From a virus (lineage: Duplodnaviria; Heunggongvirae; Uroviricota; Caudoviricetes), in IMG/VR virus record IMGVR_UViG_2690316278_000011: 6,906 nt of DNA; one strand, 5' to 3'. The position numbers were made by a program, and so were the translations under genes. The first letter of the stretch is position 1, and the number at the start of each line of letters is the position of its first letter. Below, piece after piece: positions 17 through 6,906 of this stretch. Below the pieces are notes generated by a model. That model saw nothing but the letters and a program-made list of their open reading frames with translations, had not been told where the DNA came from and did not search any database.

Positions 17-175
17 TCAAACTCGGAGCGGGTCGTATTCGTTTCGGTCAGGACATACATGCCGTAAATCTGCCCGACGCCAATTTTTCACATGCCGCCA
101 GCTTTTGTTTTGCTGTAACTGCTGATGCGGCAATGTACGCAGCTCAAAAACAAACATGCCGTAGATCATCATCAT
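17..175 (-). CDS. Short ORF (52 aa) with gpU-like N-terminus; possibly a disrupted tail terminator (gpU) gene
   Basis: Three tandem ATG codons (175-167) preceded by GAGGAG about 8 nt upstream; the first ATG overlaps the T-gene stop (ATGA). Translation MMMIYGMFVFELRTLPHQQLQQNKSWRH... resembles P2 gpU N-termini as I recall them. The ORF stops at 19-17 after 52 codons, while a second frame (87..1, ...KIGVGQIYGMYVLTETNTTRSEFDRYGKA) stays open to the window edge. Confidence 0.4.
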   Translation of the reverse strand: MMMIYGMFVFELRTLPHQQLQQNKSWRHVKNWRRADLRHVCPDRNEYDPLRV

Positions 176-3123
176 GGCCATGACTCCTCAATCTTTATCG
201 TAAAAACTGCCACGNNNNNNNNNNNNNNNNNNNNNNNNNNNNNNNNNNNNNNNNNNNNNNNNNNNNNNNNNNNNNNNNNNNNNNNNNNNNNNNNNNNNNN
301 NNNNNNNNNNNNNNNNNNNNNNNNNNNNNNNNNNNNNNNNNNNNNNNNNNNNNNNNNNNNNNNNNNNNNNNNNNNNNNNNNNNNNNNNNNNNNNNNNNNN
401 NNNNNNNNNNNNNNNNNNNNNNNNNNNNNNNNNNNNNNNNNNNNNNNNNNNNNNNNNNNNNCAGGGACCAGCGCCGGAGGCAGCGGAGCCGGGACCACGG
501 GNNNNNNNNNNNNNNNNNNNNNNNNNNNNNNNNNNNNNNNNNNNNNNNNNNNNNNNNNNNNNNNNNNNNNNNNNNNNNNNNNNNNNNNNNNNNNNNNNNN
601 NNNNNNNNNNNNNNNNNNNNNNNNNNNNNNNNNNNNNNNNNNNNNNNNNNNNNNNNNNNNNNNNNNNNNNNNNNNNNNNNNNNNNNNNNNNNNNNNNNNN
701 NNNNNNNNNNNNNNNNNNNNNNNNNNNNNNNNNNNNNNNNNNNNNNNNNNNNNNNNNNNNNNNNNNNNNNNNNNNNNNNNNNNNNNACAGGCTTCGGCGG
801 ATTGATTTTCGCCAGGTCCCCCTGAAGCAAGGCAACCTTGTCCTGAAGAATGGCCGCACGCTGTGCGTCTNNNNNNNNNNNNNNNNNNNNNNNNNNNNNN
901 NNNNNNNNNNNNNNNNNNNNNNNNNNNNNNNNNNNNNNNNNNNNNNNNNNNNNNNNNNNNNNNNNNNNNNNNNNNNNNNNNNNNNNNNNNNNNNNNNNNN
1001 NNNNNNNNNNNNNNNNNNNNNNNNNNNNNNNNNNNNNNNNNNNNNNNNNNNNNNNNNNNNNNNNNNNNNNNNNNNNNNNNNNNNNNNNNNNNNNNNNNNN
1101 NNAACCAGTTAAAGACCTGAATAATCCCATCGCGCACGACATCAAAAACAGGGCCAAACCGTTCAAAGGTTTCGCGCAACGGGGTCAGCCTTTCCATAAT
1201 CCCGCTGAACACCCCGGCAAAAAATGCCCTGATGGGATCCCAGTATTTCCAGATAAGAACGGCAGCTCCGGCAAGCGCAGCCACGATAAGACTAACCGGA
1301 CTGAACAGCGCCCCGATAGCGCCACCAAGTAAAGAAACGGAACCCGTCACCATTCCCCATAATGCAGGCAGAACCCTGACAACATTCATTGATTCGGTCA
1401 GGAGAGAAAAACCGAGACGCAACGTAGCCAGCTTCCCGTGAAGCACCCCAATAACCAGAGACAACGAACCAACCGTTGCTGTTGTCGCCAGCAGTGCGCC
1501 TCCCGCTATCAGTAACTGGCGCGTCAGTGCCGGGTGGGCCTGCGCCAGCGCCGTCACCTTTGAGACAACCCGCGTGAGCCACTGCGTGACAGAACGCAGC
1601 GGACCGTCAACCAGATCACTGATGCGAATACGCAGACCTTCCCATGCACTGCCGAGTGATTTCAGGTTGCCATCAAGGTTATTGGCCATAACCTTTGCCG
1701 TGCGTTCTGCCTCACCGCGCGCGCCTTCAAGTTCTTTTCTCAGTTTGGCTAAGAAGCCGTCACCTGCCGCATCAACGAGGCCCATAAATGATGTGAAAGC
1801 CTCTTCTCCGGCAATGTCCTTAAAGAACGATACCCGGTCAACCTCCCCGTATTTGCGGGTGGCTTTATAGAGATCGGCCAGCACATTCTCCATCGGGCGC
1901 ATTTTGCCTTTGGCGTCAGCAACTGACACCCCCAGCTCTTTCAGTGCTTCTGCCGCTGCCTTTGGCGGTGATGACAGATTGGCCAGGCTTTTACGCAACG
2001 CTGTACCTGCATCACTCCCCCTGATACCCATCTTCGCCAGCACGCCCGCCATCGCTGCGGCCTGCTCCAGCGATATTCCCAGCTTACCCGCCACCGGACC
2101 TGCATATTTCATGGTTTCGCCCAGTGCGCGAAGGTCAGTGTTGGTACGGGTAAACGCTGCGGTAAGTGTGTCACCGACCCGGTCCATCTGGTCAGCAGAG
2201 AGGCCGAACTGCGTCAGGATATTGGAACCAATATCCGCCGTCTCGCCGAGGTCCATACCGCCAGCCGTTGCCATGCTCAGCACGCCGGGAAGCGCAGCCT
2301 GAATGGCCTGCGGTGTGAAACCAGCCATTGCAAGAAATGCCTGTCCACTGGCGGCATCGCCTGCGGTGAACTGCGTTTCAGAGCCAAGTTTTAACGCCTG
2401 CTCACGCAGCGCCTTAAACTGCGGGCTGTTTTTATCGATTCGCGTCAGTGCCTGAACACGGGACATCTCTTTCCCGAACCCGATAGCGGGCTGCAAAAAA
2501 CGCCCGGCAGCATAGCCGCCCGCTGCCGCCGCACCTGTTGCCAGCGCACCACCTGTTTTCAGTTTTCCCGCTGTTTCCTGCGCGCGTGAATACCGCTCAC
2601 GCGCCTGCGTTACACGCGCAAGCGCCCGCCGTTCGCGTTCAAGCTGGTTGTTGTATTGTCCGGTGCGTCTGATGGCCTGCTGGATGGTGTTATCGCTGCC
2701 TGTCAGGGAAATGCCGTGGCGTTTCAGCTCTCCGCCAAGTTCCCGCATTTTCTGAATTTCCCGTGTGCGCGATTCATTCAGGCGTTCAAGCCGGGTGCTT
2801 AACTGCTGCATCAGCTTTTGTTGTTTTTCGCTGAGCACTGTACCCGTGCGTTGTAACTGATTAAGGGCGTTAAGCTGGCGTCGTGCTTTCACGATGCCCG
2901 CATCCGCTTTACTGACAGCGTCACGGGCGCGCTCAAATGAACGCGCCTGACGCTCGAGATTTTTGATCGCCCCCTGCGTTCGCTGGATGGAGTCACCAAA
3001 CTGCCCCATCAGGCGGCGGGCGTTTTCGGCAGGCCGGGTCAGCCTGTCAACGGCGCTGAAAGCGACCCGGATATCAAGAGTCTTCATTGTCTGCATTCCC
3101 GCTGCGAAGTGCCGCCCGCTCAC
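172..3123 (-). CDS. Phage tail tape measure protein (P2 gpT-like)
   Basis: Long minus-strand ORF, nominally 983 aa. The first 673 residues (3123..1105) are unmasked: coiled-coil-like N-terminal region, TMP core-like segment (...FTAGDAASGQAFLAMAGFTPQAIQAALPGVLSMATAGGMDLGETADIGSNILTQFGL...), then a long hydrophobic stretch (about 1240-1533). Sits directly after E/E' as in P2. Start is ambiguous (GTG 3123, ATG 3096 or ATG 3087). The C-terminal third crosses three N-runs and its frame cannot be verified. Confidence 0.85.
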   Translation of the reverse strand: MSGRHFAAGMQTMKTLDIRVAFSAVDRLTRPAENARRLMGQFGDSIQRTQGAIKNLERQARSFERARDAVSKADAGIVKARRQLNALNQLQRTGTVLSEKQQKLMQQLSTRLERLNESRTREIQKMRELGGELKRHGISLTGSDNTIQQAIRRTGQYNNQLERERRALARVTQARERYSRAQETAGKLKTGGALATGAAAAGGYAAGRFLQPAIGFGKEMSRVQALTRIDKNSPQFKALREQALKLGSETQFTAGDAASGQAFLAMAGFTPQAIQAALPGVLSMATAGGMDLGETADIGSNILTQFGLSADQMDRVGDTLTAAFTRTNTDLRALGETMKYAGPVAGKLGISLEQAAAMAGVLAKMGIRGSDAGTALRKSLANLSSPPKAAAEALKELGVSVADAKGKMRPMENVLADLYKATRKYGEVDRVSFFKDIAGEEAFTSFMGLVDAAGDGFLAKLRKELEGARGEAERTAKVMANNLDGNLKSLGSAWEGLRIRISDLVDGPLRSVTQWLTRVVSKVTALAQAHPALTRQLLIAGGALLATTATVGSLSLVIGVLHGKLATLRLGFSLLTESMNVVRVLPALWGMVTGSVSLLGGAIGALFSPVSLIVAALAGAAVLIWKYWDPIRAFFAGVFSGIMERLTPLRETFERFGPVFDVVRDGIIQVFNWXXXXXXXXXXXXXXXXXXXXXXXXXXXXXXXXXXXXXXXXXXXXXXXXXXXXXXXXXXXXXXXXXXXXXXXXXXXXXXRRTACGHSSGQGCLASGGPGENQSAEACXXXXXXXXXXXXXXXXXXXXXXXXXXXXXXXXXXXXXXXXXXXXXXXXXXXXXXXXXXXXXXXXXXXXXXXXXXXXXXXXXXXXXXXXXXXXXXXPVVPAPLPPALVPXXXXXXXXXXXXXXXXXXXXXXXXXXXXXXXXXXXXXXXXXXXXXXXXXXXXXXXXXXXXXXXXXXXXXXXXXXXXXXXXXXXVAVFTIKIEESWP
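215..461. other. Run of N (masked or unresolved), 247 nt
   Basis: Contiguous n characters inside the tape measure gene. Confidence 1.
502..786. other. Run of N (masked or unresolved), 285 nt
   Basis: Contiguous n characters inside the tape measure gene. Confidence 1.
871..1102. other. Run of N (masked or unresolved), 232 nt
   Basis: Contiguous n characters inside the tape measure gene. Confidence 1.
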
Positions 3124-3657: not shown

Positions 3658-4170
3658 TCAGCCAAGCCCGAGCGCGGAACGGATGCGATCGGGCACAATG
3701 TCCCTGCCGTCCTTCCGGTAAATGAAGTTCAGCAGGTCAATCTCCCACAACGGGCGATCGTTAACACTCAGCTTGTAGTAGGTGTTTTTAATGGCGTAAG
3801 TGTGTGATGTGGCTTCGCCCTGTTTGGCTTCCCCCATATCAATTTCCGTCACACGTCCGCGCATTTCGACTTCATACAGGTCGCTTTCAGCGTCGGTGTA
3901 GTATTCACCCGCAAAACGCAGCAGCGTACCGTCAATCGTGCCGCCATACTTAAGGAACAGCTCACGAACTGCGCCCCCCATGACAAAGCTCGCATCAAGC
4001 GCGGAGTCATCCAGGCCGAGATCAATACTTACCGCTCCCATCATGCCACCACCCCGGTAGCTGTCGGTTTTGCGCGTCAGCTTAGGCAGAGTGACGGACG
4101 TCACCTTACCCACTTCGTTTTCACCATCCACAAACAGCGTAAAAAAGCGAAGATGTTTTGGTACAGCCAT
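3658..4170 (-). CDS. Tail tube protein (P2 gpFII-like)
   Basis: 170-aa ORF (MAVPKHLRFFTLFVDGENEVGKVTSVTLPKLTRKTDSYRGGGMMGA...) closely resembling P2 FII as I recall it (...VTLPKLTRK...YRG.GM...). ATG at 4170 preceded by GGGAGG; the start overlaps the sheath stop (TGATG). Confidence 0.9.
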   Translation of the reverse strand: MAVPKHLRFFTLFVDGENEVGKVTSVTLPKLTRKTDSYRGGGMMGAVSIDLGLDDSALDASFVMGGAVRELFLKYGGTIDGTLLRFAGEYYTDAESDLYEVEMRGRVTEIDMGEAKQGEATSHTYAIKNTYYKLSVNDRPLWEIDLLNFIYRKDGRDIVPDRIRSALGLG

Positions 4171-5253
4171 CAGGCACCTCCCAGCACCGCAAATGCGGGA
4201 CCAAAGAATTCATCAGTAAACGACTGGTAAAGCTCCATGTCTTCCAGCGGGGGAACAGGCGTATATTTGTAGCGAATACGCACGCGCCCCTGACGTAAAT
4301 TCGTGGTGCCGTTATCCACCACGTCATACCAGCACGACGCCCCAATCAGTTTCCCGGCAGTAACCAGTGAATCCAGTTTTGCCCTGATGGCACCGATAAC
4401 ATCCTTCACGTTCGCAGGCGTCAGTGGACTGTCGATGGTTTCAAACTGCGCTTCCGCAATTGAATCAGCCAGCACCTGTGCGGTTCGGGTATACACCTCA
4501 AAGATGTAGGCGTTCGTTTCCGGTGTGCGGTTGCCCCAGAAGCGGAACCCGTTGCGACGAATAATGGTCGTGATTTCTTTGTTGTTGAGGCTGTTGGCAT
4601 CACTGTCTTCGGCCTGCAACGACCAGAACACATGCCTGGACATCCCCAGCACATTTTTAACCGGAACGTTGGACAGCGATTTGTGCCAGCCCTGCTCATG
4701 GTCAATGTACGCACGAAGGCCGCACGCATAGGCAGGCGCGGGGAACGTTTCGTTTTTGCCACTTTTCGGGTTGTAGGCGATGAAGTCCGGCCATAAGAGC
4801 ATCACCTCACGTTCGTTGAATTTCTGGCGGTAGGTAATTGCCTCAGCCATCGTGTTACAGTCATGACATGAGGCATACACAAACGCGCGCAGTTTACCCG
4901 CAATCACGCACAGGGATTTTGTCACCGCCTCCGTGTCCAGCTCCGGCGCGGCCAGAATACGCGGACGGTATCCGATGCTTTCATCCTGCTCTGCAACAAG
5001 CAGCGCATACATCCCCGTATAGCTGCCGTCAGATTCAGAACCACCGATAACCAGTTGATCCTGCGTTTTTCCGTCTTCTTCNNNNNNNNNNNNNNNNNNN
5101 NNNNNNNNNNNNNNNNNNNNNNNNNNNNNNCCACGCGAACGACGATCACCTTTGTGCTCACCTGGTCTGCGATGGCCTTAAGCGCACGATAAAGCGTCCC
5201 CGTTGTTCCGCATTTTCCCAGCACGTCATTGACGCGGGGCAGCAGTGTGGGCT
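4170..5253 (-). CDS. Tail sheath protein (P2 gpFI-like), 5'-partial as visible
   Basis: The 280-aa ORF 4170..5012 matches the sheath C-terminal two-thirds (...GFRFWGNRT...YTRTAQV...YKYTPVPPLED...). The same frame stays open upstream of Met-5012 (EEDGKTQDQLVIGGSESDGSYTG-MYALL) up to the 49-N run. Segment 5131..5253 encodes PTLLPRVNDVLGKCGTTGTLYRALKAIADQVSTKVIVVRV, sheath N-terminal-like, but in a different nominal frame. The start codon lies inside the masked 5254-5541 block. Confidence 0.85.
5082..5130. other. Run of N (masked or unresolved), 49 nt
   Basis: Contiguous n characters inside the sheath gene; the sheath-like frames on either side differ by one position. Confidence 1.
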
Positions 5254-5541
5254 NNNNNNNNNNNNNNNNNNNNNNNNNNNNNNNNNNNNNNNNNNNNNNN
5301 NNNNNNNNNNNNNNNNNNNNNNNNNNNNNNNNNNNNNNNNNNNNNNNNNNNNNNNNNNNNNNNNNNNNNNNNNNNNNNNNNNNNNNNNNNNNNNNNNNNN
5401 NNNNNNNNNNNNNNNNNNNNNNNNNNNNNNNNNNNNNNNNNNNNNNNNNNNNNNNNNNNNNNNNNNNNNNNNNNNNNNNNNNNNNNNNNNNNNNNNNNNN
5501 NNNNNNNNNNNNNNNNNNNNNNNNNNNNNNNNNNNNNNNNN
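5254..5541. other. Run of N (masked or unresolved), 288 nt
   Basis: Contiguous n characters covering the sheath start and the region upstream of it. Confidence 1.
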
Positions 5542-5627
5542 CCCCCTCCGCACGCACATGCGACCATGCCACACAGGGAGGGAGCAGATGACCGACACCA
5601 CCATGCAATTGCTCAGTCAGGGCACAG

Positions 5628-5654
5628 NNNNNNNNNNNNNNNNNNNNNNNNNNN
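5628..5654. other. Run of N (masked or unresolved), 27 nt
   Basis: Contiguous n characters immediately upstream of the gpD-like ORF. Confidence 1.
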
Positions 5655-5660
5655 GACCCC

Positions 5661-6725
5661 GTGAAAATGCCGGATTTTGATATTCTCGCGGAGGGTAAAA
5701 CGCTGTCAGGCGTGGCAGAGCGCCTGATGAGCCTGTCACTGACCGACAACCGGGGATTTGAGGCGGACCAGCTCACCATCACGCTGGATGATGCGGATGG
5801 TCAGTTGCAGCTACCGCCACGGGGCGCGCGCCTGACGGTTCTCATTGGCTGGAAGGGAGAACCGCTGACAGAAAAAGGCACTTACATTGTTGATGAAATC
5901 GCTCACGAAGGACCGCCGGACAGGCTGACTGTTTCAGCCAGAAGCGCAGATTTTCGGGCTGAATTTAACGTTAAACGTGAGGTGTCCTGGCATGATGTGA
6001 CCGTTGAGCGTGTGGTATCCGCCATCGCTCATCGGTATGGTCTGAAACCGCAAATCAGCGAAATGCTGATGGATATCGAAATCGACCACGCCGACCAGAC
6101 CGAAGAAAGCGACATGTCCTTCCTTACGCGCATGGCGGAAATGCTGGGCGCAATCACCACGGTAAAAAGCGGTAATCTGTTATTCATCATGCCCGGTGGT
6201 GGCGTGAACGCACAGGGCCAGCCGTTGCCCTCGTTCGCCATCACACGCAGCAGCGGCGATCGCCATCAGTTCCGCATTGCTGACCGCGAAGCGTATACGG
6301 GGGTACGCGCTTACTGGCTTGATCTTAATTACGGGAAAAAGAAAAAAGTCAGCGTGAAACGCCGCAAACCGTCAAAACCAAAAAAGGAGAAAAGCAGCAG
6401 CCGGGAAGGCGACTATATGGAAGGTGCGGAAGGCAACGTGTTTGTGTTACGCAAAACTTATCAGAACGAGCAGGCAGCAAGACGTGCAGCGGCGGCAAAG
6501 TGGCAGCAGCTACAACGCGGAGCCGCATCATTCTCCATCACACTGGCGCATGGACGTGCAGAACTCTACCCCGAAATGCATGGCACGGTAACAGGATTTA
6601 AAAGCGAGATTGATAATCAGGACTGGATTATTGCAAAAGCCGAGCACACCATTGATAACAGCGGCTTTACCACGCAGCTTGAGCTTGAGGCAAAAATCCC
6701 GGAATGGATAGCAGAAACAGAGTGA
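5661..6725 (+). CDS. Tail/baseplate hub protein, P2 gpD-like (late control D family)
   Basis: 354-aa ORF with family hallmarks as I recall them: PDF near the N-terminus, SLTDNRGFEADQL, GW.GEPL, ARSADF, DQTEESD..FLTRMA, IADREAYTGVRAYW. The ORF-finder start is GTG 5661 (ATG at 5667), but the frame is open back into the N-run, so the true start is uncertain. Stop TGA at 6723-6725. Confidence 0.85.
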   Translation: MKMPDFDILAEGKTLSGVAERLMSLSLTDNRGFEADQLTITLDDADGQLQLPPRGARLTVLIGWKGEPLTEKGTYIVDEIAHEGPPDRLTVSARSADFRAEFNVKREVSWHDVTVERVVSAIAHRYGLKPQISEMLMDIEIDHADQTEESDMSFLTRMAEMLGAITTVKSGNLLFIMPGGGVNAQGQPLPSFAITRSSGDRHQFRIADREAYTGVRAYWLDLNYGKKKKVSVKRRKPSKPKKEKSSSREGDYMEGAEGNVFVLRKTYQNEQAARRAAAAKWQQLQRGAASFSITLAHGRAELYPEMHGTVTGFKSEIDNQDWIIAKAEHTIDNSGFTTQLELEAKIPEWIAETE

Positions 6726-6906
6726 GCAACTTAAATGTATTAACTCAGAACGGATCAACACACTCACAACATAGAGTCAATATAGCTGCTCGCTTTGTTC
6801 CAGCAAGGATGCCTATTTCTAAGGAAAAACAGAGCAGAAACATATGGTGTTTTCCTACCTGACATCAGGGGTGGTAGACTGGCCCCCTGAATCTCCAGAC
6901 AACCAG

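What the first reader, a model, noticed from the sequence alone, without database searches (positions are those of the whole stretch)
5542..5680. Strongly signalled ATG at 5588 upstream of gpD, out of frame with it under the nominal gap length
AGGGAGGGAGCAG-ATG (ATG 5588-5590) is the best ribosome-binding site and start context on the plus strand; it encodes MTDTTMQLLSQGT before entering the 27-N run. The gpD frame is open across the 6 nt between the N-run and the ORF-finder's GTG start. Either this ATG is the true gpD start and the N-run is not frame-faithful, or it starts a separate small upstream ORF that nominally stops at 5678-5680.
Basis: seen in the sequence. Interest (0 to 1): 0.4.

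Follow-up and report, generated by a model that had tools for sequence, protein, structure and literature searches.

The report
True gpD start; N-gap is artefact
The ATG at 5588 is the ordinary, already-annotated start codon of the prophage tail gene D, and it looks out of frame only because the 27-N run after it is a placeholder that stands for no real sequence.

Summary
ATG 5588 follows GGAGG with a 6-nt spacer. This is the strongest Shine-Dalgarno pairing of 235 candidate starts on the + strand. It encodes MTDTTMQLLSQGT, then meets a 27-N run, and is nominally +1 out of frame with the gpD body.

The frame problem is an artefact. Two public assemblies (L009, L014) match all 5,778 unmasked window bases, including the IS2 junction. 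Phage P88, E. coli O111 and a Salmonella genome are close relatives. In all of them the flanks abut directly (…GGCACA-G-ACCCCGTG…), so the window carries 28 positions that do not exist.

All six N-runs in the window are 28-38 nt longer than the sequence they replace. Every N-run inside a gene shifts its frame.

With the gap closed, ATG 5588 opens an intact 369-aa gpD (Pfam Phage_GPD, 50% identical to P2 gpD). The same start is annotated in P88 and in a 6,052-member protein cluster. Nearly all of the 120 closest homologues, and P2 gpD itself, carry a comparable N-terminal extension of roughly 10-40 residues before the PDF motif.

The "separate small ORF" is not real. This is a known gene start, of low interest.

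The parts
5577..5581 (+). Shine-Dalgarno core GGAGG (within AGGGAGGGAG 5575-5584), 6 nt upstream of the start codon
   Evidence: Sequence. The duplex energy with the anti-SD is -11.6 kcal/mol, rank 1 of 235 on the + strand. The motif is conserved in O111, P88, Salmonella s1 and L005.
5588..5627 (+). Start codon and first 13 codons of gpD (MTDTTMQLLSQGT), plus the first base (G) of codon 14
   Evidence: Window 5588 aligns with the annotated gpD start of phage P88 (L002 7047). It also aligns with the 369-aa gene calls in L007-L010, L012 and L013. P0001 is a 369-aa protein, 99% identical, with 6,052 cluster members, and starts MTDTTMQLLSQGTDPVK.
5628..5654 (.). 27-N run that stands for no real sequence. 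Together with one of the duplicated G's (5627 or 5655) it adds 28 spurious positions and creates the apparent +1 frame offset.
   Evidence: The flanks abut, with a 1-nt overlap, in L001, L002, L003, L005, L007, L009, L013 and L014. All six N-runs in the window are 28-38 nt too long.
5655..6725 (+). Remainder of gpD (DPVKMPDFDIL… to the stop at 6723-6725). With the gap closed the gene is 1,110 nt, 369 codons plus the stop.
   Evidence: Reconstruction and translation are. Pfam PF05954 Phage_GPD scores 62.9 bits against a cutoff of 30.1. phrog_52 covers residues 1-369. The protein is 50% identical to P2 gpD and matches R2 pyocin chain 6U5H_C at E 1e-40.
5558..5680 (+). It is an artefact of the gap length and not a gene.
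   Evidence: Listed. Its stop at 5678-5680 is reached only because of the 28 spurious positions. In relatives this frame is the gpD frame.
4170..5253 (-). Context: the tail sheath gene FI, transcribed divergently from gpD. Its 5' end and the 157-nt FI/D intergenic region are hidden by the N-run at 5254-5541.
   Evidence: Pfam Phage_sheath_1 and Phage_sheath_1C match. The sheath gene lies at L009 3817-5001. The frame shifts across the N-run at 5082-5130.

Best explanation
ATG 5588 is the translation start of gene D (gpD, the baseplate hub protein) of a P88-like (Xuanwuvirus) P2-family prophage of E. coli. Ribosomes are recruited by the GGAGG 6 nt upstream. They translate one uninterrupted 369-codon ORF, MTDTTMQLLSQGTDPVKMPDFDIL…, ending at 6725. 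The first 17 residues are a lineage-variable N-terminal extension that precedes the conserved fold. The 27-N run is not masked sequence of that length. It is a placeholder whose length is about 28 nt too great, most likely a scaffold gap with an over-estimated size, and the two flanks actually abut. The apparent frame offset and the 'small upstream ORF' are consequences of that placeholder. Shown here: the continuity and frame in identical and related genomes, the strength of the ribosome-binding site, and the conservation of the extension. Inferred: the cause of the N-run, actual initiation at this codon, and the hub function.
For: (1) L009 (ADUU01000015.1) and L014 (CP179990.1) are 100% identical to all seven unmasked segments of the window, 5,778 nt in total, including the IS2 junction. 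In both, window 5627 and 5655 map to the same base (alignment).
(2) The same continuity is seen in O111 11128, phage P88, Salmonella s1 and L005.
(3) A 161-nt closed-junction query matches 1,361 complete E. coli records. Of these, 1,356 have one place covering at least 80% of it, none is below 90% identity, and all 30 sampled rows are single pieces.
(4) The six N-runs exceed the sequence they replace by 32, 32, 28, 38, 38 and 28 nt. Each unmasked segment still encodes the reference protein exactly, but in a frame that shifts at every intragenic N-run.
(5) Closing the gap gives an intact 369-aa ORF. P88 annotates gpD from this ATG, and six of eight fetched loci aa. P0001 (369 aa, 99% identical, 6,052 members) starts MTDTT.
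(6) The Shine-Dalgarno pairing is -11.6 kcal/mol, rank 1 of 235. The alternative starts score between -3.1 and +0.9.
(7) Nearly all of the 120 closest homologues have an extension before the (V/I/M)P(D/A/G)F motif: about 10-40 residues in the normally called proteins, 17 here, and longer still in a few calls with extended N-termini. A recurring …(A/P)VK motif precedes it. P2 gpD has 14 residues before its PDY.
(8) P88 differs by a synonymous GAC to GAT change in codon 3.
(9) P88 is an inducible phage (abstract of PMC5285337, listed).
Against: The window's own source contig could not be found, so its true bases at 5628-5654 were not read directly. The window also lacks 158 nt of gpU that every relative has, so it is not simply an L009-type sequence with N's added. 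R2 pyocin PA0628 starts at the PDF-equivalent, which shows the fold does not require the extension. RefSeq annotates the same DNA as a 266-aa protein in some records. No experimental mapping of the gpD N-terminus was retrieved.
Confidence: 0.93

Rival explanations
1. The N-run faithfully masks real sequence. On this reading the source strain carries a 28-nt insertion (27 N plus one G) after codon 13, which frameshifts gpD. The gene would then be a pseudogene, or would be re-initiated at GTG 5661 or ATG 5667 to give an N-terminally truncated hub.
For: Taken literally, the window has 28 extra positions. The source contig was not recovered. The locus shows other decay: an IS2 downstream and a 158-nt loss in gpU. 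R2 pyocin shows that a hub starting at the PDF motif can be functional.
Against: It would require six independent insertions of 28-38 nt, each exactly under an N-run, in a sequence otherwise 100% identical to public genomes over 5,778 nt. In the complete E. coli genomes with this junction, every best match is at least 90% identical and all 30 sampled rows are unbroken single pieces, so no insertion of that size was seen. GTG 5661 and ATG 5667 have no Shine-Dalgarno sequence. No protein with the 354-aa product is on record.
Confidence: 0.04
2. ATG 5588 starts a separate small upstream ORF, a leader peptide of about 30 codons that ends at 5678-5680. It would overlap the gpD start and be translationally coupled to it.
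For: The nominal ORF appears, the ribosome-binding site is strong, and the nominal stop overlaps the first codons after ATG 5667.
Against: The stop at 5678-5680 is in that frame only because of the 28 spurious positions. In all eight unmasked relatives the ATG reads straight into gpD. phrog_52 and phrog_4456 align from residue 1.
Confidence: 0.01
3. gpD starts at a different in-frame codon of the same ORF. Candidates are the upstream ATG 5558 (ten codons earlier), the internal ATG 5603, or GTG 5661 / ATG 5667.
For: The frame is open back to a TAA 135 nt upstream of ATG 5588. A few database entries carry longer N-termini (P0016, P0057, P0085). PGAP sometimes calls a much later start, giving 266 aa.
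Against: None of these codons has Shine-Dalgarno pairing (+0.9, 0.0, -3.1 and -2.6, against -11.6 kcal/mol for 5588). Most independent gene calls and the 6,052-member cluster use ATG 5588. Homologues conserve residues upstream of the PDF motif.
Confidence: 0.02

Closest known systems
gpD ('tail protein', YP_009113094.1) of Escherichia phage P88 (Xuanwuvirus, Peduoviridae)
   Same: The DNA is about 97% identical across the gene. It has the same start codon position, the same Shine-Dalgarno sequence (one G to A difference) and the same MTDTTMQLLSQGTDPVKMPDF N-terminus. The gene order is also the same, with D divergent from FI-FII-E-T-U.
   Different: P88 gpD is 366 aa against 369 aa here. In the window an IS2 sits about 150 nt downstream of D.
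gpD of phage P2 (NP_046784.1, 387 aa), the founding member of the 'late control D' / Phage_GPD family
   Same: It is 50% identical from the PDF/PDY motif to the C-terminal end of the window protein, E 9e-122. It also has a short N-terminal extension, 14 residues before PDY. It belongs to the same tail gene set.
   Different: The extension sequence is not alignable. In P2, D follows U on the same strand in the F operon, ahead of ogr. Here D is transcribed divergently from the sheath gene.
R2 pyocin PA0628 (PDB 6U5H chain C, 329 aa)
   Same: It is homologous over residues 18-356 of the window protein, E 1e-40. Pfam describes this family as the tail baseplate hub.
   Different: It starts directly at the PDF-equivalent (MQPSFRIVADG) with no N-terminal extension. 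It also lacks the lysine-rich insert at about residues 240-262.

Membership tests
Phage late control D / Phage_GPD (PF05954), baseplate hub of P2-like tails | Match to the Pfam model above its gathering score | tested here: met
   62.9 bits against a cutoff of 30.1, E 3.7e-17, residues 91-349.
Phage late control D / Phage_GPD (PF05954), baseplate hub of P2-like tails | Full-length similarity to P2 gpD itself | tested here: met
   50% identity over query residues 19-369, E 9e-122.
Phage late control D / Phage_GPD (PF05954), baseplate hub of P2-like tails | Location in a P2-type tail module with sheath FI, tube FII, E, tape measure T and U | tested here: met
   The gene tables of L007-L014 and P88 show the module. 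The orientation of D differs from P2.
Phage late control D / Phage_GPD (PF05954), baseplate hub of P2-like tails | Assembles as the trimeric hub at the tip of the tail tube | not testable with these tools
   Only sequence homology to R2 pyocin chain 6U5H_C is available.
Upstream small ORF / leader peptide | Own stop codon, in a frame separate from the downstream gene, in the real (unmasked) sequence | tested here: not met
   In all eight unmasked relatives the ATG is in frame with gpD and there is no intervening stop.
Type VI secretion VgrG (TssI) | Match to the NCBIfam VgrG models above their cutoffs | tested here: not met
   NF033848 scores 29 bits against 275. TIGR03361 scores 18.4 bits against 186. 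This indicates only remote relatedness of the hub fold.
Length-faithful sequence mask | N-run length equals the length of the sequence it replaces | tested here: not met
   Measured against assemblies identical at every unmasked base, the N-run and replaced lengths are 247/215, 285/253, 232/204, 49/11, 288/250 and 27/-1.

The most novel reading that the evidence does not exclude
The source strain really carries a 28-nt frame-breaking insertion after codon 13 of gpD, hidden by the N's. A strongly translated 30-codon remnant ORF would then terminate 12 nt past ATG 5667, and might drive coupled re-initiation of an N-terminally truncated, R2-pyocin-like hub protein.
Probability: 0.03. Interest if true: 0.12.

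Novelty: already known. Interest (0 to 1): 0.04.

Why it matters
It matters mainly as a caution. N-runs in this window cannot be used to infer reading frames, because each is 28-38 nt too long. Any ORF, frameshift or 'small gene' inferred across them, in gpD, the sheath gene or the tape-measure gene, is unreliable. Biologically this is the ordinary, already-annotated start of a common E. coli prophage tail gene.

Tried and rejected
Locating the source contig failed by every route:
- The whole window against complete E. coli genomes gave a best match of 95% identity over 83% of the window, with no identical record.
- A gapped pattern across the N-run in genome contigs gave 0 hits.
- A 20-mer from the gpD start in genome contigs gave two real relatives and two chance hits, none of them the source.
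- The 158-nt-deletion junction gave 0 hits in viral contigs and 0 in metagenome contigs.
- An exact look-up of the 354-aa GTG-started product found nothing on record.

A search of the 157-nt FI/D intergenic region of L009 found no P2-type late-promoter element (TGT-N12-ACA). The sigma-70 scan of L009 3500-4000 found no promoter-like site in that intergenic region and no terminator; its single promoter-like hit lies inside the gpD coding region. How D is transcribed in P88-like phages was therefore not resolved.

The reading of gpD as a T6SS VgrG was considered and rejected, because the NCBIfam scores fall far below their cutoffs.

Full report
**What is in the window.** The window is the tail module of a P2-family prophage. 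On the minus strand lie part of gpU, the tape-measure gene T (ending near 3123), E/E', the tube gene FII (3658-4170) and the sheath gene FI (from 4170 upward). On the plus strand lies a gene D homologue ending at 6725. An IS2 end begins at about 6875. Six runs of N total 1,128 positions.

**The observation.**
- AGGGAGGGAG lies at 5575-5584, followed by a 6-nt spacer and ATG at 5588-5590.
- Thirteen codons read MTDTTMQLLSQGT.
- The N-run covers 5628-5654 (27 N).
- GACCCC is open in the gpD frame before GTG 5661 and ATG 5667.
- The nominal stop for the ATG 5588 frame is at 5678-5680.

The ribosome-binding site is not a chance feature. Pairing with the 16S 3' end gives -11.6 kcal/mol. This is the best of 235 candidate starts on the plus strand and equals the best on the minus strand, the tube gene start. 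In unmasked context the other candidate starts score +0.9 (ATG 5558), 0.0 (ATG 5603), -3.1 (GTG 5661) and -2.6 (ATG 5667).

**What the N-run hides.** A megablast of 5542-6906 found 2,648 E. coli records and 21 phage records. Most of the phage matches are P88-like (Xuanwuvirus) phages. In E. coli O111:H- 11128 and in phage P88 the sequence reads …CAGGGCACAGACCCCGTGAAAATGCCG… with nothing where the window has its N's. The window has GGCACAG + 27 N + GACCCC, which is 28 extra positions. A Salmonella genome and a further contig show the same.

A look-up of the window's exact tube protein returned eight loci. Two of them, L009 (ADUU01000015.1) and L014 (CP179990.1), are 100% identical to all seven unmasked segments of the window. 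That is 5,778 nt and includes the IS2 junction. In both, window 5627 and 5655 map to the same single G.

A 161-nt closed-junction query matched 1,361 complete E. coli records. Of these, 1,356 have one place covering at least 80% of the query, and none is below 90% identity. All 30 rows sampled down the ranking were single pieces. No insertion at this site is therefore visible in the population.

**The N-runs are systematically too long.** Measured against the identical assemblies, the six N-runs compare with the replaced sequence as follows:

| N-run (nt) | Replaced sequence (nt) | Excess (nt) |
|---|---|---|
| 247 | 215 | +32 |
| 285 | 253 | +32 |
| 232 | 204 | +28 |
| 49 | 11 | +38 |
| 288 | 250 | +38 |
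| 27 | -1 (flanks overlap by 1) | +28 |

None of the excesses is a multiple of three. Each unmasked segment encodes the reference T, FI or D protein exactly, but the frame changes at every intragenic N-run.

A roughly constant positive bias with small scatter is what scaffold gap estimates look like when the library insert size is over-estimated. So are tiny islands of 40-123 nt between gaps, and flanks that overlap by one base. This cause is my inference. The length discrepancy itself is shown.

The source contig could not be found in any collection, so its own bases at this site were not read.

**What the ATG is.** Removing the 28 spurious positions gives an intact ORF of 1,110 nt, or 369 codons. 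Window 5588 aligns with the annotated start of P88 gpD (L002 7047). It also aligns with the 369-aa gene calls in six of the eight fetched loci. The closest database protein, P0001, is 369 aa and 99% identical, represents 6,052 member sequences, and starts MTDTTMQLLSQGTDPVKMPDF.

The protein matches several family models and known relatives:
- Pfam Phage_GPD, described as the tail baseplate hub, above its threshold.
- phrog_52, over residues 1-369.
- P2 gpD, at 50% identity.
- R2 pyocin chain 6U5H_C, at E 1e-40.
- The T6SS VgrG models, only far below their cutoffs.

**The N-terminal extension.** I aligned the N-termini of the 120 best homologues, whose identity to the query is 72-99%. Nearly all have an extension before the (V/I/M)P(D/A/G)F motif, often ending …(A/P)VK. 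It is about 10-40 residues in the normally called proteins. The window clade has one of the shorter versions, at 17 residues. The exceptions are a few calls truncated to start at or after the motif, one fused protein, and a few with much longer N-termini.

P2 gpD has 14 residues before its PDY. The R2 pyocin homologue starts exactly at the motif. The extension is therefore a lineage-variable appendage rather than part of the core fold.

It evolves faster than the rest of the protein. P0002 differs at 5 of these 17 residues, against 92% identity overall. Between the window and P88 the only coding difference in the first 13 codons is a synonymous GAC to GAT change.

**Mechanism.** Translation of gpD initiates at ATG 5588 through Shine-Dalgarno pairing and runs uninterrupted to 6725. 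The initiation step is inferred from the ribosome-binding site, the conserved ORF and consistent annotation. The product is the hub protein of a P2-type contractile tail, inferred from family membership. P88, which carries the same gene start, is an inducible P2-like phage (abstract of PMC5285337, listed).

The 'small upstream ORF' and the frame offset are artefacts of the gap length.

**Rivals.**
- A real 28-nt insertion in the source strain cannot be excluded formally. It would require six similar insertions, each exactly under an N-run, in a sequence that is otherwise identical to public genomes.
- A different in-frame start (5558, 5603, 5661 or 5667) has no ribosome-binding site.

**Verdict.** The feature is a known, annotated gene start. 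Interest is low.

Noticed in passing
window 82|83 (within gpU, minus strand): 158 nt of gpU are missing from the window, with no N's at the junction and almost no microhomology. The same 158 nt are present in O111, in all eight tube-protein loci (L007-L014) and in all twelve listed top complete E. coli matches. The loss would frameshift gpU. It could be a real deletion or a misassembly.
   Followed up: partly
window N-runs 215-461, 502-786, 871-1102, 5082-5130, 5254-5541 and 5628-5654: Every N-run is 28-38 nt longer than the sequence it replaces in assemblies identical at all unmasked bases. The apparent 983-aa tape-measure ORF (172..3123) and the split sheath ORFs are therefore frame artefacts. 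The real T protein is 935 aa and the real FI protein is 394 aa.
   Followed up: yes
window ~6875-6906: The left end of IS2 is inserted about 150 nt downstream of the gpD stop, between gpD and a 500-aa PIN-domain gene. The identical insertion is present in L009, L013 and L014.
   Followed up: partly
L001 7303-8156; L011 and L014 2550-3350: DNA that is identical or nearly identical across gpD is annotated two ways. Some records call a 369-aa 'phage late control D family protein'. Others call a 266-aa 'contractile injection system protein, VgrG/Pvc8 family', leaving the first ~100 codons unannotated. In O111 11128 those codons are partly covered by a minus-strand pseudogene. Seventeen of the 30 sampled complete-genome rows show no feature over the gpD start.
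   Followed up: partly
L009 3660-3816 (corresponds to the masked window stretch 5254-5541 plus 5542-5587): In P88-like phages gene D is transcribed divergently from FI-FII-E-T-U. In P2, D follows U in the F operon. The 157-nt divergent intergenic region contains no TGT-N12-ACA (Ogr-type late promoter) element, and the sigma-70 scan found no promoter-like site there. How D is expressed late in infection is not evident.
   Followed up: partly
L005 2833-3043 (NZ_JBQPOM010000071.1, 226-kb contig labelled Vagococcus sp. WN89Y): A contig labelled as a Firmicute carries this enterobacterial P88-like gpD start nearly unchanged. This suggests contamination or a mislabelled assembly.
   Followed up: no
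H95, NZ_CP031343.1 1472879-1473038: This complete genome spans 160 nt for the 161-nt query across the gpD start. That implies a 1-nt indel and possibly a genuinely frameshifted gpD in that strain.
   Followed up: no
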